From sequence record PZ445489.1: DNA of 64,000 bases; one strand, written 5' to 3'. The stretch is from a phage. Each line of letters opens with the position of its first letter. Positions within the stretch are counted from its first letter, which is position 1. Shown here in pieces: positions 6,577 through 40,340 of the stretch. The notes beneath the pieces were generated by a model. The model saw only the letters and a program-made list of their open reading frames with translations. It was not told where the DNA came from and made no database searches. The translations under genes were made by a program, and so were the position numbers.

Positions 6577-6630
6577 TTTAAAATTGTAGTTGCTTTTTAC
6601 TGTATATATTGGTATAATATATTTGTAAGT
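6577..6630 (+). promoter_or_regulatory. T5-type early promoter
   Basis: TTGCTT 6589-6594, 17-nt spacer, TATAAT 6612-6617. Confidence 0.65.
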
Positions 6631-15655: not shown

Positions 15656-16357
15656 ATGAAAGTAAAACCATTTGGTATGCTAGATATTGAATCTCTAGGA
15701 ACTCCGGGAGATTGTGGTACTACTCATATTGTAATGCCTTCTTTCGCTTTTGTGGCTATGCATGGGATTGATAAAGACCCTGATCTAGTGTTTGTTACTT
15801 TAGATGTACAAGATCAGCTTAATTCTGGAGCTAAAGTTACGGCATCTACTCTAGCATTCTGGATGGATCAAGCTAAACATAGCCCGTCTGCTATCCACAT
15901 TATGGAAGCTATGAAGGAACGTAATCCAAAACTGATTGCCTTCCAAAATGGTAAACATCATTGCACTAATAAACTCGGCTCTAACTATGCTGCCTTCTCT
16001 ATGGCTAAAAACATTATGGAATTGGCTCTAGGCGACAATGCTTTGTACTATGGCAATGGCCCAGAGTTTGATATGACTATCTACTCTGCAAATACGTTCC
16101 ATGCTGGAACCAATGAAGAGGTAGTTCCGTGGAAATTCTGGAATTTGGGCAATGTTCGATCTCTTCGTAATCTCTGGATGCAAGCTGGATACAGTTATAA
16201 GGCTCTAGAGACCGAAGGTATTAGCTGGGCAATAGCTAAAATGGAGAAGATGGACACTATTCGTTATGGGATCTATCCGGTTAAGCATGATCCTGCATTT
16301 GATGCCTTAGTTGAAAGCTATTGTGTTGCAGCTATGATCGAAAAAATGAAAATTTGA
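15656..16357 (+). CDS. DEDD-type 3'-5' exonuclease-like protein
   Basis: N-terminal LDIESLG (DxE) and C-terminal HDPAFDAL resemble DnaQ-like exonuclease motifs; weak. Confidence 0.4.
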   Translation: MKVKPFGMLDIESLGTPGDCGTTHIVMPSFAFVAMHGIDKDPDLVFVTLDVQDQLNSGAKVTASTLAFWMDQAKHSPSAIHIMEAMKERNPKLIAFQNGKHHCTNKLGSNYAAFSMAKNIMELALGDNALYYGNGPEFDMTIYSANTFHAGTNEEVVPWKFWNLGNVRSLRNLWMQAGYSYKALETEGISWAIAKMEKMDTIRYGIYPVKHDPAFDALVESYCVAAMIEKMKI

Positions 16358-16405
16358 TTTGCTTCCGGCCCCAAAATTCTGTATAATATATTCATAAATT
16401 TGAGA
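16345..16405 (+). promoter_or_regulatory. T5-type early promoter (overlaps 3' end of previous CDS)
   Basis: TTGCTT 16359-16364, 17-nt spacer, TATAAT 16382-16387. Confidence 0.6.
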
Positions 16406-16427
16406 AAACAATAAAAGGAAAACAAAT

Positions 16428-16610
16428 ATGCCAGTATCTAAAAATGTTCGTAAAAATGGTAAGAAAGCTACTCGTAATCTGGGTATCCGTCGTATGGCTG
16501 AACGTCAATCAGGTATCCAGAAAATCTTTGATCTGCTAAATCGTGCTAATCCTAAAATTGATAACAGTAACGATACTGTTCTGCGCACTCTGCTGGCAAT
16601 TGGTCTGTAA
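16428..16610 (+). CDS. hypothetical basic protein (60 aa)
   Basis: ORF after promoter. Confidence 0.4.
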   Translation: MPVSKNVRKNGKKATRNLGIRRMAERQSGIQKIFDLLNRANPKIDNSNDTVLRTLLAIGL

Positions 16611-16663
16611 TAGACCAAATTTAAACAAATTCAAATCTCAAACTTCATATAAGGAAGCAAATA

Positions 16664-17302
16664 ATGACTACTCGTATCTCTAAAACTCGCGCTCTGGCAA
16701 CTATCAAATCTCTGGAAGCTAAAATCCGTAAAGCTACTGAACAACAGCTTCTGATCGCTGTTGGTGAAGGTAAGGATAAAAATAAGGTTGTAGTTGGCGC
16801 TGCAATCGAAGTAGACGATCTATCTGCTCGTATTAAGGCAGATTTCCAGTCTCTGCTGGATATGATGTCCCAGCGTGATCGTATCAAAGCTGCTCTGATT
16901 AAGAGCAATGCGGAAACAATCGTTGAGATTGGCTCTCGTAAGATGACTGTTGCGGAAGCAATTGAAGCTAAGCGTTCTATGGAACTTAAAGCTCAACTGC
17001 TGGCTAACATGCGTAAGCAGTTCCATGCTGCTACGGTTAAGTTTAACACGCAGAAAGTACAGTTTGATGCTAAATATGAGCGTTTGCAGGATAGCATGGC
17101 TACCCGCGATAAGAAAACTTCCGAAGATGAAGTTAAAATGCAGCTCAACCTGCTGGAACTCAAGAATACTCCATTCTTGATTGATCCGCTGGAACTGGAG
17201 AAGCTGATTAAGCAGCATGACGAGGAATATCAGGACTTTGCAACAAATGTTGACTTTGTTCTGTCCGAGTCTAACGCCTCTACCTTCATTGAAGTAGAGT
17301 AA
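16664..17302 (+). CDS. hypothetical coiled-coil protein (212 aa)
   Basis: ORF with host-like codon usage. Confidence 0.55.
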   Translation: MTTRISKTRALATIKSLEAKIRKATEQQLLIAVGEGKDKNKVVVGAAIEVDDLSARIKADFQSLLDMMSQRDRIKAALIKSNAETIVEIGSRKMTVAEAIEAKRSMELKAQLLANMRKQFHAATVKFNTQKVQFDAKYERLQDSMATRDKKTSEDEVKMQLNLLELKNTPFLIDPLELEKLIKQHDEEYQDFATNVDFVLSESNASTFIEVE

Positions 17303-17671
17303 TAATTTAAAAGCTAGTAAATCGGTAGACGAAAGCCCAAGCATCTTACCTCGCAGCAGCGGTTGAAATACGAGGTTAAATAAGACCGCTGACCATACTA
17401 TAAGGTATAATCTATTGGAGATTATGTTTATTACATCAGACATTTAATCTGACACGTAAAAACAAAGCGTCGTTGATATTACCGACACAACTTCAAAGAT
17501 CAACATTTAAGTATGAAAGCTGAAAAGTTTAAAGAACTCAAACTTCTAAACTTCTAAAGCTAAAAGATGCAAAGTATTCGTTGATGATTCAAACCCTAGA
17601 TCAAAGGTACATGGCTCATAAGATATGGCCTGTGGCGCCTCTAGGCTGTTTATCGGTTTACTAGTTTCACA

Positions 17672-17732
17672 ATTTAAAAATGTATTTGCTAATTTACTAA
17701 ATTATATGTATAATATATTTTTAAATTGATGA
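17672..17732 (+). promoter_or_regulatory. T5-type early promoter
   Basis: TTGCTA 17686-17691, 17-nt spacer, TATAAT 17709-17714. Confidence 0.65.
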
Positions 17733-17744
17733 AACGAGGCTATT

Positions 17745-18062
17745 ATGACTTTTCATATTTTGATTGATGATGTGCGTAATCTTCACGGAATGGACATTAT
17801 CATTCGAACCCCAGAAGCCGCTGTCGAGTTTCTGAATAAAACTGATACCACAGGCCACTTCGTTTATATGGATAATGACTTGGCTGTAGATGGTATGGAA
17901 GGTTATCAAATTCTTCGTTTACTCTTAGAATTTGGGCAGAGACCAAAGAAAGTGGTACTAGTAACCTCGAACCCAGTAGCTAAGCAACATATGCGTAATG
18001 ATTTGCTTGACTTAGGGTACAAAGAAAACCCCAATCGTGTTGAATATGATTGGCAGGAGTAA
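17745..18062 (+). CDS. hypothetical protein (105 aa)
   Basis: ORF after promoter. Confidence 0.5.
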   Translation: MTFHILIDDVRNLHGMDIIIRTPEAAVEFLNKTDTTGHFVYMDNDLAVDGMEGYQILRLLLEFGQRPKKVVLVTSNPVAKQHMRNDLLDLGYKENPNRVEYDWQE

Positions 18063-18067
18063 AAAGA

Positions 18068-18517
18068 ATGAAGGCAGCTTTGCTTTTAGTAGCTGCCCTT
18101 ACCTTCAGCTTTAGTAGTCAGGCATCGCACGATGCAAAAGAAATAGATTGCATTGCTAAAAATATCTATTTCGAAAGTCGTGGTGAGGGCATAAAGGGAA
18201 TGACGGCGATTGCACACGTTACTAAAAACCGTGTAAACTCCGGTAAATTCCCAGATTCCTACTGTAAAGTAGTATATCAGTCTAACCAGTTCTCTTGGGT
18301 ATCTAAGAGACCAAAAGTTGATAAAACTGATGAGGCTTGGCAAACCGCTAAGAATTTAGCTAGAGTGATATACTACGTTGATTTACCACAAGATCCTACA
18401 CATGGAGCACTATACTTCCATAGTGGTAAAGATAAACCTTACTGGACAAAGAAGTTTAAGAAAACAACTAAGATTAAGGGACATACGTTTTATAAACCTG
18501 TTGTCACTAAAACTTAA
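18068..18517 (+). CDS. secreted cell-wall hydrolase (SleB/CwlJ-like)
   Basis: Signal peptide MKAALLLVAALTFSFSSQA, then hydrolase-like region IAKNIYFESRGEG..AIAHVTKNR. Confidence 0.6.
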   Translation: MKAALLLVAALTFSFSSQASHDAKEIDCIAKNIYFESRGEGIKGMTAIAHVTKNRVNSGKFPDSYCKVVYQSNQFSWVSKRPKVDKTDEAWQTAKNLARVIYYVDLPQDPTHGALYFHSGKDKPYWTKKFKKTTKIKGHTFYKPVVTKT

Positions 18518-18572
18518 AAATTTACTTGCTTAAATACTTAAATTTCCGTATAATACTTCCATAAATTAATGA
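18512..18572 (+). promoter_or_regulatory. T5-type early promoter
   Basis: TTGCTT 18525-18530, 18-nt spacer, TATAAT 18549-18554. Confidence 0.6.
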
Positions 18573-18585
18573 GAGGAAGCGAAAT

Positions 18586-18756
18586 ATGAAATCAGTTGTA
18601 ATTATTGGTGTTAACACTCGCGGTATTCGTACTACGAAAATTGTTAAAACTTCTAACGTTGCTGAGATCACTACGAACCCTAAAAAGTTTGATTTCGCCA
18701 AAGTCTCAGCAGTTATGACAGAACAATCTTTTAACCAAGCGTTAGGAATGAAATAA
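18586..18756 (+). CDS. hypothetical protein (56 aa)
   Basis: Small ORF with GAGAGGAAG RBS after promoter; below ORF-track cutoff. Confidence 0.4.
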   Translation: MKSVVIIGVNTRGIRTTKIVKTSNVAEITTNPKKFDFAKVSAVMTEQSFNQALGMK

Positions 18757-19199
18757 TGGAAGAGAATATTTTAGATGTTTTGCGTAGAGCTTTGCAGGAT
18801 TCTAAGTTTAATGGTTCTGATAAAGAAGTCGCTAAAAGCTATCAGACCATAATCGGGGATCTTCAGCGTATTAATAAAGATTTCATCACTTCTGAACAAT
18901 TTGTGTCTTATCTCAAAGCTCAACTAAAAAGCATTAACCAGATGAAAGCTAAACTTCATGGTCAAGATCTTGATAGTTATAGCTTGCAGTCCGCTCAGTA
19001 TGAGTACATTCTAAATAAGTGGTTGCAGGAGTATCTGCCCCCTCAGTTATCTGATACTGAGATTCGTAAATACTTTGCAGAATTAGTTAAGCTAAACCCT
19101 GGAATTACAAAAGGTATGCTGATGAAAGCGATTAAGGAAGAATTTCCTGGGCGTTATGATGGTGGTACTGCTGCTCAGATTGCTGGTGAATTTAATTAA
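18756..19199 (+). CDS. GatB/YqeY-domain protein
   Basis: C-terminal EIRKYFAELVKLNPGITKGMLMKAIKEEFPGRYDG resembles YqeY domain. Confidence 0.5.
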   Translation: MEENILDVLRRALQDSKFNGSDKEVAKSYQTIIGDLQRINKDFITSEQFVSYLKAQLKSINQMKAKLHGQDLDSYSLQSAQYEYILNKWLQEYLPPQLSDTEIRKYFAELVKLNPGITKGMLMKAIKEEFPGRYDGGTAAQIAGEFN

Positions 19200-19254
19200 A
19201 AATTTATTTGCTAAATGCTTATAAATTCTGTATAATATATTCATAAATTAGAGA
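19196..19254 (+). promoter_or_regulatory. T5-type early promoter
   Basis: TTGCTA 19208-19213, 17-nt spacer, TATAAT 19231-19236. Confidence 0.65.
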
Positions 19255-19255
19255 A

Positions 19256-20048
19256 CAGCGAGCCGATTACGCTGAACTTGTCTTAATGTAAGATGCGTCG
19301 AGCACTAAGATTCGTTGAATAGAGTCGGTAGGTTAGTTGTAAAACTAGTACACAGGGGGCGGCAATCCCGGTTAGTGGCTAGAACGTGTAAAATGAGGCG
19401 TCTGAAACCTCTCCCCTAAACTCTTCTCTAATTTATAAATAGTGGGGTGTGGAAATCACTTATGTAGTAACACTGCCGTCCTAGTATAATTGGTATTATC
19501 AAGCCGTAACTGGTGGAAGATATAGATTCGAATCCTACGGTCGGTAAGAACTGGATAACTGATGCTTTTAACGTAAAAGCTTCCGAGGTTAGTTGCGCAC
19601 TGCCTAAACCACGCGGTAGTTGGTTCCAGGCTAACCAACCAGTCTGCTGAATAGTTTTATTACGATTTAACTATGTCCAGGCTAAAGAAGAACTTTAGAA
19701 GGTATTCTAGGATAGTGAAGTTTTTTCTCCATATCGGAGTAGTTTTTCAAGCTATCCACAAAGTGGGAAATGCTGACATGAGAGATGTCACTAATGGTGC
19801 ACAATAGCACAGGTAATTCGCGATAACTCCTGTTGAGTAGCAGCAAAAGGCGGGAAGTCATGACCCCAAGCCTAACCGAGTCCTCAATATACCGCAGGAC
19901 ATAACCACTAAGTCACCCTGACTTAAACTGGAAAATAATAGACGTTACTGTATTTTGTCTTGAAATACTTAATGAGTGAGACTTATGACTCTCCCGGTAT
20001 CGTCTGTATTTTTAAGAGTTTTTACGAGAGTTCTTAAAAATATTTAAA
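19256..20048 (+). ncRNA. promoter-driven ORF-free structured region (function unknown)
   Basis: About 790 nt with no ORF over 10 codons with RBS on + strand; hairpins and a T-loop-like GATTCGAATCC; precedes tRNA-Arg. Confidence 0.3.
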
Positions 20049-20123
20049 CGGGGTGTAGTCTAAGGGAGAGGCAGGAGTCTTCTAAATTCCTTTATGCAGG
20101 TTCGAATCCTGTCACCTCGGCCA
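20049..20123 (+). tRNA. tRNA-Arg (anticodon TCT)
   Basis: Hand-folded cloverleaf: acceptor cggggtg/cacctcg, anticodon loop CTTCTAA, T-loop TTCGAAT, encoded CCA. Confidence 0.7.
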
Positions 20124-20157
20124 ATTTTATTAACTGTAACTAAAACAAAGGAAATAT

Positions 20158-21105
20158 ATGTTTAATACTAAAAATATGAAAGAACTGACTTCTGAGCAGA
20201 AAGTAATTCGTACTATTAAACGTTGGGGTATTGGTGCTGTAGTTGGTTTAGCAGGCTTGATTCTAGCCTTTAATTCATATACTATTGTTTCTGATGGTAC
20301 GGTTAAAACCCAAACATTTCTGGGTAAAGTAGATCCTAACCCAGTATTACCAGGTTTCCATCTTGTAAACCCATTTGCATCTTTCGACACTTTTAGTACA
20401 AAAGATATTGCTGTAAAATTAGATAAACTTCAGGTTCCTAGCCAGGATAAGTTTAAATCCACTGTTGACCTGACTGTTATGTTGCAGTTTGATGGTTCTA
20501 AGGCACCAATTAACCGTATTAACGCAGGTACTCAGGATCAAGCGTTAGACAAATATGTAACTGAAAAATTACTGTCTACTATTCGTGAGTTTGGTAAGTC
20601 TGTACCTAAAGCACAAGATTTGTTTGATGCTAAAATTCAGGCTCAATTGCAAACTGCAATTCAACAGGAAGTTGAAGAGTATGCACGCCCATATGGTTAC
20701 ACAGTTAAGCAGGTATTCCTTCAGGATATTACTTTGCCACCGGTAATCATGGAACAGGTACAGAATACCAAAGTTCGTGAAGAACAGGTTAATGCTGCTA
20801 AAGCTGAATTAGCTCGTGTTGAACAGGAAGCACAGCAAAAAGTTAAACAAGCAGAAGCAGATCGTGAAGCTCGCAACAACCAAGCTATCGCTAATGAACG
20901 TGACGCAGATGCTAAACTGTACGCAGCTAAGAAAGAAGCTGAAGCTAACGCCGCACTGCAACGTACCATTACTCCTGAGATGATTCGTTGGAAACAACTG
21001 GAAGTCGAAATGATTCGTGCTCAGAAATATCAAGGTGGTGTACCACAGACTGTGGTAGGTACTGGCTACGATGGTCAAATGATCATGGATATGCGTAATA
21101 AATAA
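20158..21105 (+). CDS. SPFH/band-7 (prohibitin/HflC-like) membrane protein
   Basis: N-terminal TM helix then SPFH-like region and Ala/Gln/Glu-rich coiled coil. Confidence 0.7.
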   Translation: MFNTKNMKELTSEQKVIRTIKRWGIGAVVGLAGLILAFNSYTIVSDGTVKTQTFLGKVDPNPVLPGFHLVNPFASFDTFSTKDIAVKLDKLQVPSQDKFKSTVDLTVMLQFDGSKAPINRINAGTQDQALDKYVTEKLLSTIREFGKSVPKAQDLFDAKIQAQLQTAIQQEVEEYARPYGYTVKQVFLQDITLPPVIMEQVQNTKVREEQVNAAKAELARVEQEAQQKVKQAEADREARNNQAIANERDADAKLYAAKKEAEANAALQRTITPEMIRWKQLEVEMIRAQKYQGGVPQTVVGTGYDGQMIMDMRNK

Positions 21106-38624: not shown

Positions 38625-38660
38625 AATTTTAAGCCAGGGTTTAACGACCCTGGCTTTTCT
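38625..38660 (+). terminator. rho-independent terminator
   Basis: agccagggt...accctggct stem followed by TTTCTTTTAT. Confidence 0.55.
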
Positions 38661-38713
38661 TTTATCTAAAATTCTTCTTGACAACGACAAAATTTTATGC
38701 TCCAGAAGTGATC

Positions 38714-38768
38714 TTTAAAAACACATTGTAATTTTCCTCCAAAATTAGTATAATGGTATTGGTTAGAG
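38714..38768 (+). promoter_or_regulatory. sigma70 promoter upstream of lysis genes
   Basis: TTGTAA 38726-38731, 17-nt spacer, TATAAT 38749-38754; an additional TTGACA at 38678. Confidence 0.5.
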
Positions 38769-38778
38769 GAGGTTACAA

Positions 38779-39435
38779 TTGGAAAAGTTCTTACAATTAT
38801 TAACGGTACTGCTCCAAGAAGCGAAAGATCCAGCATCGCTTCTTAAACGTCTGCTAACTATCTTAGTTGCTGTCATTATTTTCTTATTTGTTAGTAATAC
38901 TAGCGAGGTGATGTCATTCTTAAAGACTTTCTCCACGTCTGCGGTTCTACAGGATGTTCAAACTCAAAGGATAGATAACTTTCCTAATGTAGCTAGAGAA
39001 AAGAGCATGGTACTCTTTTCTCAAACGGGTGCGGATGCTGTTTTTGTCGTCAAGTATAAACCCGATGCCATTAATGATTATTCTAACATTATTGCATGGG
39101 AAAGCAATGCGCAATTAGATAGGGCTGACTTGGCCGATAAAGCGGTAAATAAAACGTCTGAGCTATATAGACGTCACTTGGAAGGCTTTAACTACGCATC
39201 GGATTTAAGTGTAAAAGTAAATAAATACATGGGGTTAAATATACCTGCGTTTAAGAACGTTACTTTTAATTACATATACACTTGTCCGTATTTCAATCTA
39301 AACAATATCTATGCTGGATATATTGGTATTGCTTGGAAAGATAACCCTGTAGATGCAGCCGATTCTGAGAAATTTAAGGAATATTTAACAAAGCTCTGTT
39401 CACCACAACAGAGATCTTTAGGTAGATCAATATGA
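38779..39435 (+). CDS. putative holin (218 aa)
   Basis: N-terminal TM helix LLTILVAVIIFLFV; sits directly upstream of endolysin with 4-nt overlap; TTG start after AGAGGAGG. Confidence 0.45.
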   Translation: MEKFLQLLTVLLQEAKDPASLLKRLLTILVAVIIFLFVSNTSEVMSFLKTFSTSAVLQDVQTQRIDNFPNVAREKSMVLFSQTGADAVFVVKYKPDAINDYSNIIAWESNAQLDRADLADKAVNKTSELYRRHLEGFNYASDLSVKVNKYMGLNIPAFKNVTFNYIYTCPYFNLNNIYAGYIGIAWKDNPVDAADSEKFKEYLTKLCSPQQRSLGRSI

Positions 39436-39845
39436 GTTTTAAATTTGGTAAAAATAGCGAAAAACAATTAGCTACCGTCAAGCCAGAGCTACAAAAAGTA
39501 GCTCGTAGAGCTTTAGAATTATCTCCATATGATTTTACGATCGTACAGGGTATTCGTACAGTAGCACAAAGTGCCCAGAATATTGCTAATGGTACTTCAT
39601 TTTTAAAAGATCCTAGTAAAAGTAAGCATATTACTGGGGATGCTCTTGATTTTGCTCCATACATTAATGGCAAAATTGATTGGAATGATTTAGAAGCATT
39701 TTGGGCAGTTAAGAAGGCTTTTGAACAAGCTGGTAAAGAGCTAGGCATTAAACTTCGTTTTGGTGCTGATTGGAATGCTTCGGGAGACTATCACGATGAA
39801 ATAAAACGTGGTACCTATGATGGCGGTCATGTCGAACTAGTTTAA
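39432..39845 (+). CDS. lys: endolysin, L-alanyl-D-glutamate peptidase (M15-like)
   Basis: 137 aa; HITGDALDF ... DGGHVEL zinc-peptidase motifs; same size as the T5 endolysin as I recall it. Confidence 0.8.
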   Translation: MSFKFGKNSEKQLATVKPELQKVARRALELSPYDFTIVQGIRTVAQSAQNIANGTSFLKDPSKSKHITGDALDFAPYINGKIDWNDLEAFWAVKKAFEQAGKELGIKLRFGADWNASGDYHDEIKRGTYDGGHVELV

Positions 39846-39923: not shown

Positions 39924-40340
39924 ATGTTTGCAGAACTATTCACTATGATGCTGCTAGGTATCTGGAAAATAAGTCTAGTAGTATTCGTTTTAATGATAGT
40001 CTTTACTATCATTGCATTAACTACCCGAAATAGCTTATTAATAAAGGTTATTCACGGACTAGAGTATATAATTATGGGTTCATTCGGCGTTTGTAAATGC
40101 AATTGCCATAGAGATACGAAATATTGTTGGTTATGGATGGAACTAGAGAATCCTATATCCATAGCTTTGGCTGTTTCATTCGGCATGATTCTTATGGCCC
40201 TTACTCTAGCATTAATACCTTTGATGTTAGCTGGGGGAGTTACAGCGTATTTCACCCTTTTCTCCCCGATACTTATGTACTCAATTTACCCAATAACTAT
40301 GTATCTAGTTAGGAAAAGATTTATACATGCAGTAGATTAA
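39924..40340 (+). CDS. polytopic membrane protein (138 aa)
   Basis: Four hydrophobic segments; just downstream of lysis genes. Confidence 0.45.
   Translation: MFAELFTMMLLGIWKISLVVFVLMIVFTIIALTTRNSLLIKVIHGLEYIIMGSFGVCKCNCHRDTKYCWLWMELENPISIALAVSFGMILMALTLALIPLMLAGGVTAYFTLFSPILMYSIYPITMYLVRKRFIHAVD

What the first reader, a model, noticed from the sequence alone, without database searches (positions are those of the whole stretch)
18068..18517. Early-expressed secreted SleB-like cell-wall hydrolase, separate from the endolysin
A signal-peptide-bearing hydrolase-like protein is encoded behind an early promoter, 20 kb from the holin/endolysin pair at 38779-39845. It could act during infection on the envelope rather than in lysis.
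Basis: partly seen in the sequence, partly recalled or inferred. Interest (0 to 1): 0.35.

Follow-up and report, generated by a model that had tools for sequence, protein, structure and literature searches.

The report
Exported SleB-like wall hydrolase of T5-like phage
This is the already-annotated T5 gene T5.083: a small wall-cutting enzyme that carries an export signal and an early-type promoter and lies far from the phage's lysis genes, and although it is kept in almost all T5-like phages its role has never been tested.

Summary
Window 18068-18517 (+) encodes a 149-aa protein that is 97% identical to T5 gene T5.083 (the window is 99.5% identical to phage SP15).

- **Domain and fold:** it has a full-length Pfam Hydrolase_2 domain (E=2e-25). 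A confident AlphaFold model matches only the SleB catalytic domain in the PDB.
- **Catalytic residue:** a Glu (E36) at the SleB catalytic position is invariant.
- **Export:** the N-terminus is a typical Sec signal peptide (MKAALLLVAALTFSFSSQA|SH). A conserved Cys pair fits a periplasmic disulfide.
- **Expression:** it is the second cistron behind a promoter with the T5 early-class signature (TTGCTA-17-TATAAT-ATATT).
- **Position:** it lies 20.3 kb from a confirmed T-type holin and M15 endolysin pair.
- **Selection:** dN/dS is 0.08, and the gene is present in nearly all Demerecviridae.

It is not a true spore SleB: it scores far below the equivalog cut-off and has no peptidoglycan-binding domain.

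None of this is new. The gene has been annotated as a cell wall hydrolase homolog in the T5 st0 record (AY692264), and papers from 2012 and 2024 noted a SleB-domain gene far from the holin.

A related phage, ST32, places a signal-bearing homolog directly after its holin. An exported accessory lysin is therefore the most likely role.

The parts
17686..17719 (+). Sigma-70 promoter of the two-gene unit: -35 TTGCTA (17686-17691), 17-nt spacer, -10 TATAAT (17709-17714), discriminator ATATT (17715-17719).
   Evidence: This is one of 7 identical-format promoters on the + strand of the window. The T5 record annotates a promoter at the same place. ATATT is the T5 early-promoter signature per PMC7472727.
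17745..18062 (+). Upstream cistron, a cREC_REC receiver-domain protein (T5.084 orthologue). Its stop codon lies 5 nt before the hydrolase start, so the two are probably co-transcribed.
   Evidence: Pfam PF20274, E=1.5e-14. 96% aa identity to T5.084 with dN/dS 0.13. The adjacency is not conserved outside close T5 relatives.
18055..18059 (+). Shine-Dalgarno AGGAG, 8 nt before the ATG at 18068.
   Evidence: Read directly from the sequence. An in-frame TTG at 18050 exists, but database orthologues are 149 aa.
18068..18517 (+). CDS of the exported SleB/CwlJ-family (Hydrolase_2) peptidoglycan-cleaving enzyme, orthologue of T5.083 / T5p081.
18068..18124 (+). Predicted Sec signal peptide, residues 1-19 (MKAALLLVAALTFSFSSQA), with predicted signal peptidase I cleavage after A19.
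   Evidence: Heuristic analysis. The n-h-c architecture is kept in diverged orthologues. 143 of 151 family representatives have an N-terminal hydrophobic segment.
18125..18514 (+). Mature catalytic domain, 130 aa, about 15.0 kDa, pI 9.7, with a Lys-rich C-terminal tail.
   Evidence: The AlphaFold model has mean pLDDT 93. Foldseek TM-scores to SleB 4F55/4FET are 0.72-0.78.
18173..18175 (+). Codon GAA for E36, the predicted catalytic glutamate (motif YFE36SRGE).
   Evidence: It aligns with the first Glu of YGESRGE in 4F55/4FET. It is invariant in 150 of 150 representatives.
18149..18151 (+). Codon for Cys28, half of a conserved Cys pair (predicted periplasmic disulfide).
   Evidence: C28 and C66 are both present in 149 of 151 representatives. 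Both are absent from Bacillus SleB at the aligned positions.
18263..18265 (+). Codon for Cys66, the second half of the conserved Cys pair.
   Evidence: C66 is invariant in alignment A1.
18526..18554 (+). Next promoter (TTGCTT-17-TATAAT), the equivalent of T5 promoter P-D/E33. It marks the start of the next unit (DUF7616 and YqeY-like genes). No terminator was found between it and the hydrolase stop.
38779..39845 (+). Context: the phage's canonical lysis pair, a T-type holin (38779-39435, TTG start) overlapping the M15 L-alanyl-D-glutamate-peptidase-type endolysin (39432-39845).
   Evidence: Its own promoter (TTGTAA-17-TATAAT-GGTAT, -10 element at 38749-38754) lacks the ATATT discriminator.

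Best explanation
The gene is the T5.083 orthologue of a T5-like phage (Tequintavirus).

Proposed sequence of events:
1. It is transcribed by host sigma-70 RNA polymerase from an early-class promoter, as the second cistron after a cREC-domain gene. The promoter and gene layout are read from the sequence; transcription from them is inferred.
2. The 149-aa precursor is exported by Sec and cut after Ala19 (inferred from the sequence pattern).
3. The 15-kDa basic mature domain folds in the periplasm, probably with a C28-C66 disulfide (inferred from co-conservation).
4. Using Glu36 as the catalytic acid, it cleaves the MurNAc-GlcNAc bonds of the host sacculus, as the SleB/CwlJ lytic transglycosylase domain does (inferred from homology and fold).

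Because it reaches peptidoglycan without a holin, it is not the phage's timed endolysin. The most likely role is an exported accessory lysin. It would accumulate in the periplasm ahead of lysis, be tolerated because a soluble transglycosylase alone is weakly lytic, and add glycan-strand cleavage to the peptide-stem cleavage by the M15 endolysin once the holin fires. The gene is kept by selection, though no sensitive test of whether it is needed for plaque formation exists.
For: - **Identity:** the window is 99.5% identical to phage SP15 and 99.1% to phiLLS. The protein is 97.3% identical to T5.083.
- **Domain:** Hydrolase_2 at E=2.2e-25 over the full profile. PHROG 938 'endolysin' at E=5.5e-30.
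- **Fold:** AlphaFold mean pLDDT 93. The only significant PDB matches are SleB catalytic domains, at probability 1.00 and TM 0.72-0.78.
- **Catalysis:** E36 aligns with the SleB catalytic position and is invariant in 150 of 150 representatives.
- **Export:** a signal-peptide pattern that is conserved in architecture but not in sequence. 143 of 151 family representatives have an N-terminal hydrophobic segment and 149 of 151 have both Cys residues.
- **Cellular relatives:** these are chromosomal genes of Alpha-, Beta- and Gammaproteobacteria. The Zymomonas homologue affects peptidoglycan and cell shape.
- **Activity on Gram-negative walls:** a structural SleB homologue is toxic in the E. coli periplasm, and toxicity depends on the aligned Glu (PMC11148199).
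- **Family members acting as endolysins:** ST32 gp78, a signal-bearing Hydrolase_2 protein, directly follows a lambda-S-family holin.
- **Selection:** dN/dS is 0.08. About 521 phage records carry an orthologue at 60% identity or more, against about 527 for the M15 endolysin.
- **Promoter class:**
Against: - No experiment on this protein was found: no activity assay, localisation data or knockout phenotype.
- The signal peptide was judged by rules of thumb, not by SignalP.
- Bacillus SleB needs muramic-delta-lactam, which E. coli peptidoglycan lacks. Activity on ordinary peptidoglycan is therefore assumed from relatives, not shown.
- In the CRISPRi-ART screen of T5, knock-down of T5.083 scored 'Not Fit'. 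That screen also scored lys and several known structural and replication genes 'Not Fit', so it says little either way.
- The gene is not next to the holin and has a different promoter type from the lysis operon. This fits a non-lytic role just as well.
- After the M15 peptidase removes cross-links, extra glycan cleavage may add little to lysis.
Confidence: 0.55

Rival explanations
1. Non-lytic envelope remodelling. The exported transglycosylase acts during the early and middle period to alter the sacculus for a purpose other than release. Possibilities include loosening the wall as the cell fills with about 100 or more particles, changing the periplasm so that superinfecting phages fail, or releasing muropeptides that alter host physiology.
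For: - The early-class promoter signature differs from that of the holin operon.
- Early T5 transcripts peak about 20-30 min before lysis.
- Export is holin-independent.
- Cellular homologues are housekeeping remodelling enzymes rather than lysins.
- In distant T5-like contigs the gene sits among nucleotide-metabolism and other early-type genes.
Against: - No specific target process is known in T5. DNA entry is complete before early genes are expressed, and the tape-measure protein pb2 is thought to handle wall penetration (from my own knowledge).
- The same family serves as the holin-linked endolysin in ST32.
- The T5 lysis genes also lie in the early region.
Confidence: 0.25
2. Redundant, self-sufficient second endolysin. 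It alone can lyse the cell once the membrane is depolarised, like secreted or SAR endolysins, and so backs up the M15 enzyme.
For: - RefSeq and PHROG label it 'endolysin'.
- A 2024 paper lists it as a second endolysin far from the holin.
- In CRISPRi-ART the holin is 'Fit' but lys is 'Not Fit', which redundancy could explain.
- ST32 shows the holin-plus-signal-bearing-homologue arrangement.
Against: - The T5 CRISPRi-ART data miss many essential genes, so the 'Not Fit' call for lys is weak evidence.
- The N-terminus looks like a cleavable signal and not a membrane-tethering SAR domain: the core is short and Leu-rich and is followed by an SQA site. There is therefore no obvious way to hold activity back until holin triggering.
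Confidence: 0.12
3. Inactive or vestigial passenger gene with no role in infection, or a virion-associated entry enzyme.
For: - Knock-down scored 'Not Fit' in T5.
- Occasional truncated copies exist: Klebsiella phage vB_Kpn_3 has the gene in two pieces, and P0029 and P0033 are fragments.
Against: - Strong purifying selection, with dN/dS 0.08.
- The catalytic Glu is invariant.
- The gene is present in nearly all Demerecviridae records.
- The T5 st0 deletion mutant retains it.
- A Sec signal, an early promoter and a position outside the late structural module argue against a virion protein. Only four structural proteins were identified in AKFV33 particles, none of them this one.
Confidence: 0.05

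Closest known systems
Phage T5 gene T5.083 (T5p081 in the st0 record), 'cell wall hydrolase homolog' / 'endolysin', and its orthologues in Tequintavirus, Epseptimavirus and Sugarlandvirus
   Same: It is the orthologue: 97.3% aa identity, the same neighbours (T5.084 cREC upstream, promoter P-D/E33 and T5.082 downstream) and the same length. Several database phages encode a 100% identical protein.
   Different: Nothing of substance differs: 4 amino-acid changes, all in the mature domain.
Bacillus SleB / CwlJ spore cortex-lytic enzymes (PDB 4F55, 4FET; Pfam Hydrolase_2)
   Same: The catalytic-domain fold (TM 0.72-0.78), the YxESRGE motif with the catalytic Glu, and about 28-30% identity.
   Different: - It has no N-terminal PG_binding_1 domain.
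- It scores 50 bits against the TIGR02869 cut-off of 236.5.
- It has a Cys pair that Bacillus SleB lacks.
- No YpeB partner is present.
- Its substrate cannot be muramic-delta-lactam cortex.
Proteobacterial periplasmic SleB-like lytic transglycosylases (for example Zymomonas mobilis SleB, bioRxiv 10.64898/2026.07.21.739787)
   Same: A single-domain Hydrolase_2 protein with an N-terminal export signal in a Gram-negative envelope. The closest cellular relatives (35-45% identity) are chromosomal genes of Alpha-, Beta- and Gammaproteobacteria.
   Different: It is phage-encoded and expressed from a phage early promoter. The cellular enzymes are housekeeping remodelling factors whose biochemistry is also still undefined.
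Sec-exported and SAR endolysins (for example the holin-adjacent Hydrolase_2 protein gp78 of phage ST32; Lys44 of oenophage fOg44 and P1 Lyz, the last two from my own knowledge)
   Same: A phage muralytic enzyme that reaches the wall through the host Sec system and not through holin holes. ST32 gp78 has the same domain family and an N-terminal hydrophobic signal.
   Different: It is not linked to a holin (20.3 kb away). It is present alongside a canonical cytoplasmic endolysin. It has an early-type promoter. Its N-terminus looks cleavable and not like a releasable membrane anchor.
T6SS effector T6EC3, a structural homologue of SleB (PMC11148199)
   Same: A SleB-like fold acting in the E. coli periplasm, with activity dependent on the aligned glutamate.
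   Different: It is delivered by a secretion system as a toxin with an immunity protein. The phage gene has no adjacent candidate immunity gene: the downstream DUF7616 protein has no signal peptide.

Membership tests
Pfam Hydrolase_2 (PF07486; SleB/CwlJ catalytic domain family) | Profile score above the curated gathering threshold over the whole domain | tested here: met
   89.7 bits against a cut-off of 27, with profile positions 1-100 of 100 matched to residues 39-142.
Pfam Hydrolase_2 (PF07486; SleB/CwlJ catalytic domain family) | Three-dimensional fold of the SleB catalytic domain | tested here: met
   The AlphaFold model has pLDDT 93. The only Foldseek PDB matches with E<=0.001 are 4F55 and 4FET, at probability 1.00, TM 0.72-0.78 and rmsd 2.3-2.8.
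Pfam Hydrolase_2 (PF07486; SleB/CwlJ catalytic domain family) | Catalytic glutamate in the Y-x-E-S/A-R-G-E motif | tested here: met
   E36 aligns with the first Glu of YGESRGE in 4F55/4FET. Chain numbering places that residue at E157 (B. cereus) and E151 (B. anthracis); those catalytic-residue numbers are recalled from memory, because the two structure papers could not be read. E36 is invariant in 150 of 150 representatives.
Pfam Hydrolase_2 (PF07486; SleB/CwlJ catalytic domain family) | Lytic transglycosylase chemistry (1,6-anhydroMurNAc products) | not testable with these tools
   This needs muropeptide analysis of digests by the purified protein.
Spore cortex-lytic enzyme SleB proper (NCBIfam TIGR02869 equivalog) | Whole-protein score above the equivalog cut-off | tested here: not met
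Spore cortex-lytic enzyme SleB proper (NCBIfam TIGR02869 equivalog) | N-terminal peptidoglycan-binding domain (PG_binding_1) ahead of the catalytic domain | tested here: not met
   Hydrolase_2 is the only Pfam hit. Only about 19 residues of mature protein precede the domain.
Spore cortex-lytic enzyme SleB proper (NCBIfam TIGR02869 equivalog) | Dependence on muramic-delta-lactam in the substrate | not testable with these tools
   This is a biochemical property. The hosts (E. coli, Salmonella) make no spore cortex.
Canonical holin-dependent phage endolysin | Encoded in a lysis cassette next to a holin | tested here: not met
   The nearest holin is at 38779-39435, 20.3 kb downstream, and has its own M15 endolysin.
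Canonical holin-dependent phage endolysin | Cytoplasmic accumulation (no secretion signal) | tested here: not met
   An N-terminal signal-peptide pattern is present and conserved.
Sec-exported (secretory or SAR) endolysins | N-terminal Sec signal or signal-anchor on a muralytic domain | tested here: met
   Judged by heuristics: K2, a 13-15 residue hydrophobic core with Kyte-Doolittle 2.96, and S-Q-A at -3/-1. No dedicated predictor was available.
Sec-exported (secretory or SAR) endolysins | Signal is a releasable anchor (SAR) rather than a cleaved peptide | tested here: inconclusive
   The core is short and Leu-rich, not long and Gly/Ala-rich, and an AXA-type site follows it. This favours cleavage, but only an experiment can decide.
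Sec-exported (secretory or SAR) endolysins | Activity held in check until membrane depolarisation by a holin or pinholin, and required for lysis | not testable with these tools
   This needs lysis physiology of mutants. The CRISPRi-ART data are uninformative.
Virion-associated peptidoglycan hydrolase | Encoded in the late structural module and present in particles | tested here: not met
   The gene lies next to the tRNA cluster in the early region, behind an early-type promoter. It is not among the four structural proteins identified in AKFV33 particles. No virion proteome was analysed here.

The most novel reading that the evidence does not exclude
The enzyme is a substrate-gated glycan-strand cutter. 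It waits harmlessly in the periplasm from early infection and becomes effective only after the M15 L-alanyl-D-glutamate peptidase, released by the holin, strips or un-crosslinks the peptide stems. This would echo SleB's preference for peptide-free muramic-delta-lactam and RlpA's preference for denuded strands. T5-like phages would then demolish the sacculus with two enzymes delivered by two different routes at two different times. Alternatively, it remodels the wall before lysis for a purpose unrelated to release.
Probability: 0.15. Interest if true: 0.5.

Novelty: already known. Interest (0 to 1): 0.22.

Why it matters
T5-like phages are model systems and common biocontrol candidates, and nearly all of them keep this exported wall-cleaving enzime-class gene under strong selection, yet its role has never been tested. 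Showing what a holin-independent, early-made periplasmic transglycosylase does would fill a small gap in T5 biology, whether it speeds lysis, completes sacculus breakdown or remodels the envelope. It would also help annotate the many 'second endolysins' of the Hydrolase_2 family in phages of Gram-negative bacteria. As a genome observation it is ordinary: the gene, its domain and its distance from the holin are already in databases and papers.

Tried and rejected
- **CRISPRi-ART fitness data for T5 (PMC11879866 supplements).** T5.083 is 'Not Fit', but so are lys and several known structural and replication genes. I rejected this as evidence of dispensability.
- **A functional link between the cREC gene and the hydrolase.** They are adjacent in T5 relatives, but not in Sugarlandvirus PWKp9S (metallopeptidase upstream), two distant T5-like metagenomic contigs, Cronobacter phage CR9 or ST32. 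I treated the pairing as incidental co-transcription.
- **The T5 st0 deletion as a natural knockout.** The deletion ends two genes downstream and the hydrolase gene is retained.
- **Lipoprotein.** There is no lipobox, and Cys28 is 9 residues past the predicted cleavage site.
- **P1-Lyz-type SAR regulation.** There is no Cys in the N-terminal segment.
- **An immunity or inhibitor gene next to it.** The downstream DUF7616 protein (56 aa) has no signal peptide.
- **Unavailable sources.** The SleB structure papers (PMC3415495, PMC3621120) and the phiR2-01 proteome tables were not held. The residue numbers of the SleB catalytic Glu therefore rest on my memory plus chain arithmetic.
- **Source names for ten representative homologues.** These were uninformative metagenome entries.
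- **RNA families.** An Rfam scan of 16000-21000 found nothing in the 442-nt gap upstream of the promoter.
- **Disulfide geometry.** The structure tool returns no model coordinates, so the C28-C66 distance could not be measured.

Full report
**What the window is.** Bases 17000-20000 match 450 phage records. Identity is 99.5% to Escherichia phage SP15 and 99.1% to phiLLS, both Tequintavirus in the family Demerecviridae. In the T5 reference genome the equivalent stretch runs in the opposite orientation. It contains, in order, T5.085, a promoter, T5.084, T5.083, promoter P-D/E33, T5.082 and T5.081. The finding corresponds to T5.083.

**Checking the observation.**
- The ORF 18068-18517 (+) starts at ATG, 8 nt after AGGAG, and encodes 149 residues.
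- Pfam gives one hit, Hydrolase_2 'Cell Wall Hydrolase': E=2.2e-25, 89.7 bits against a cut-off of 27, covering the whole profile.
- PHROGs places it in phrog_938 'endolysin'.
- Sequence search of the PDB finds only the SleB catalytic domains of Bacillus cereus and B. anthracis.
- An AlphaFold model built on 41 homologues has mean pLDDT 93. Its only significant structural matches in the PDB are those same SleB domains, at probability 1.00 and TM 0.72-0.78. In the viral structure library it matches dozens of phage 'SleB/cell wall hydrolase' proteins.
- The holin (Phage_holin_T, E=8e-114) and the M15-type endolysin at 38779-39845 are real and lie 20.3 kb away.

**Catalytic residue and subfamily.** Glu36 (YFE36SRGE) aligns with the first Glu of YGESRGE in 4F55/4FET. 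By chain arithmetic, this is the residue I recall as the catalytic Glu157/Glu151. I could not read the structure papers. An exhaustive HMMER search of 1.84 billion representative proteins found 14,485 relatives. Among the 150 best:
- E36 is invariant.
- Both cysteines of the phage protein (C28, C66) are present in 149 of 151 sequences.
- 143 of 151 have an N-terminal hydrophobic segment.

Bacillus SleB has Leu and Ser at the two Cys positions. The protein therefore belongs to an exported subfamily of Hydrolase_2, probably disulfide-bonded. The cellular members of this subfamily are chromosomal genes of Alpha-, Beta- and Gammaproteobacteria at 35-45% identity.

It is not a true spore SleB. It scores 50 bits against the 236.5-bit cut-off of the TIGR02869 equivalog, and it lacks the peptidoglycan-binding domain.

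**Signal peptide.** No dedicated predictor was available, so I applied the standard rules:
- a Lys at position 2;
- a 13-15 residue Leu-rich core (best 9-mer Kyte-Doolittle 2.96);
- Ser-Gln-Ala at positions -3 to -1 before Ser20.

Orthologues whose N-termini have diverged keep the same layout, with a small residue at -1 (Ala in all but My1, which has Gly) and a small or aliphatic residue at -3. Examples are MLKVLLLLATTISSLPAYA|T, MKITLFTVIFLFSFQSYA|S and MKRALLLIALFLFSFIAIA|S. There is no lipobox, and the segment is too short and too Leu-rich to look like a SAR anchor. The mature protein would be 130 aa, about 15.0 kDa, with pI 9.7 and a Lys-rich tail. This fits the positive C-terminal charge reported for Hydrolase_2 lysins of Gram-negative phages (PMC8223927).

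**Promoter and transcription unit.**
- TTGCTA-17-TATAAT sits at 17686-17714 and is followed directly by ATATT.
- Klimuk et al. report that all T5 early promoters identified so far carry ATATT in the discriminator, and that this is what distinguishes them from late promoters (PMC7472727).
- The window contains seven promoters of exactly this format, all on the + strand. The T5 record annotates a promoter at the same position.
- The promoter drives a cREC_REC-domain gene (17745-18062, Pfam E=1.5e-14) whose stop codon is 5 nt before the hydrolase start. The two are thus probably a bicistronic unit.
- No terminator was found after the hydrolase. A new promoter, the T5 P-D/E33 equivalent, follows at 18526-18554.
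- The holin-endolysin operon has its own promoter with a different discriminator (TATAAT-GGTAT). In T5 it is bracketed by annotated terminators.
- In T5, early transcripts appeared about 20 min after infection and faded by 30 min, with a latent period near 50 min. I found no direct transcript data for T5.083.

**Conservation.**
- Against T5.083 the gene is 96.4% identical in DNA and 97.3% in protein, with dN/dS 0.08.
- About 521 phage records carry an orthologue at 60% identity or more. The figure for the M15 endolysin is about 527, so the gene is close to universal in Demerecviridae.
- The T5 st0 deletion mutant keeps it. The deletion ends two genes downstream.
- In the Klebsiella Sugarlandvirus PWKp9S the gene is intact, with its signal, both Cys residues and the Glu, but it follows a metallopeptidase gene, not cREC.
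- In more distant T5-like metagenomic contigs it lies among nucleotide-metabolism genes.
- The link to cREC is therefore not conserved and is probably incidental.

**What is already known.**
- The T5 st0 record labels the gene 'cell wall hydrolase homolog (PF07486, COG3773)'.
- The AKFV33 paper of 2012 lists lysozyme, holin and 'cell wall hydrolase SleB' as three products of the early region. phiLLS annotates it the same way.
- Guzel et al. 2024 explicitly describe T5-like Salmonella phages as having one M15 endolysin next to the holin and a second, SleB-domain 'endolysin' far from it. They state that which one the phages mainly use needs study.
- Hydrolase_2 is described as one of the dominant catalytic domains of lysins from phages of Gram-negative bacteria. 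27.9% of such lysins have predicted signal peptides.
- I found no biochemical or genetic study of T5.083. A full-text search for 'T5.083' returned nothing.
- The CRISPRi-ART screen scores it 'Not Fit'. It scores lys and many known essential genes the same way, so that result carries little weight.

**How it most likely works.**
- Read from the sequence: promoter, ribosome-binding site, ORF, domain, and conservation of the catalytic Glu.
- Inferred from pattern: Sec export, cleavage after Ala19, and a C28-C66 disulfide.
- Inferred from homology: cleavage of the glycan backbone by lytic transglycosylase chemistry.

Other work supports activity of this fold on ordinary Gram-negative peptidoglycan. 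A structural SleB homologue is toxic in the E. coli periplasm in a Glu-dependent way. Loss of the Zymomonas homologue changes cell shape and cross-linking.

The role is the uncertain part. A signal-bearing homologue sits directly after a lambda-S-family holin in phage ST32, so the family does serve as a lysis enzyme in E. coli phages. I therefore favour an exported accessory lysin. It would be pre-positioned in the periplasm and would add glycan cleavage to the peptide cleavage of the M15 enzyme (confidence about 0.55). Its support is the early-type promoter and the housekeeping nature of the cellular relatives. A fully redundant endolysin (about 0.12) and an inert or virion-borne protein (about 0.05) are less likely.

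**Verdict.** The finding is accurate but ordinary. It rediscovers a long-annotated, near-universal gene of T5-like phages whose separation from the lysis cassette has already been published. The remaining open question is experimental, namely what the enzyme does. Interest is 0.22 and novelty is 'already known'.

Noticed in passing
window 17745-18062 (+): The gene immediately upstream and probably co-transcribed encodes a cREC_REC 'cyclic-phosphate processing receiver' domain protein (Pfam E=1.5e-14; T5.084 orthologue). It sits beside the tRNA cluster and a YqeY-like gene, which hints at an RNA-repair or tRNA-related role. Its adjacency to the hydrolase is not conserved outside close T5 relatives.
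   Followed up: partly
window, -10 elements starting at 6613, 13327, 16382, 17709, 19231, 27669 and 33708 (+): There are seven stereotyped promoters of the form TTGCT[AT]-17 nt-TATAAT-ATATT, all on the + strand. They match the discriminator signature reported for T5 early promoters. The holin promoter (-10 element at 38749-38754, TATAAT-GGTAT) is not of this type.
   Followed up: partly
window 17303-17744: A 442-nt stretch between the T5.085 orthologue and the promoter has no convincing ORF and no Rfam match at E<=1. The T5 st0 record annotates divergent putative promoters here.
   Followed up: partly
window 16664-17302 (+) and 16820-17443 (-): Two long ORFs overlap on opposite strands. The two T5 records disagree on which is the gene: RefSeq has T5.085, and st0 has T5p083 on the other strand. 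dN/dS of 0.056 for the + strand ORF against T5 favours it. The RefSeq label 'tail fiber protein' looks doubtful for an early-region gene.
   Followed up: partly
window 19200-20048, with a weak hit at 19475-19546 (+): The stretch between the YqeY-like gene and tRNA-Arg (20049-20123) corresponds to the T5 stable 'RNAX' of unknown function. It contains a sub-threshold tRNA-like match (Rfam tRNA 22.3 bits, gathering score 29). Twenty-three tRNA genes follow, between 20049 and 32159.
   Followed up: no
window 18756-19199 (+): The YqeY-like protein ('tRNA amidotransferase', T5.081 orthologue) has an N-terminal half very different from T5's, while the C-terminal half is nearly identical. This suggests a mosaic junction inside the gene. 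The T5 st0 deletion endpoint also falls in this gene.
   Followed up: no
window 38633-38663 and 38779-39845 (+): The holin-endolysin operon is preceded by a hairpin plus T-run terminator and starts with a TTG codon after GAGGAGG. In the published T5 CRISPRi-ART data the holin is 'Fit' while the endolysin is 'Not Fit'. This could reflect either screen insensitivity or back-up by the SleB-like enzyme.
   Followed up: partly
window 39924-40340 (+): A 138-aa protein with several hydrophobic segments lies just after the endolysin. It is the T5.039 orthologue, annotated with four transmembrane domains, and has no Pfam match. Its position suggests a possible lysis-related membrane protein.
   Followed up: no
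L006 (phage ST32) 2010-2923: In this Chaseviridae phage, a lambda-S-family holin is followed directly by a 184-aa Hydrolase_2 protein with an N-terminal hydrophobic signal. In this phage, therefore, the same enzyme family appears to be the endolysin.
   Followed up: partly
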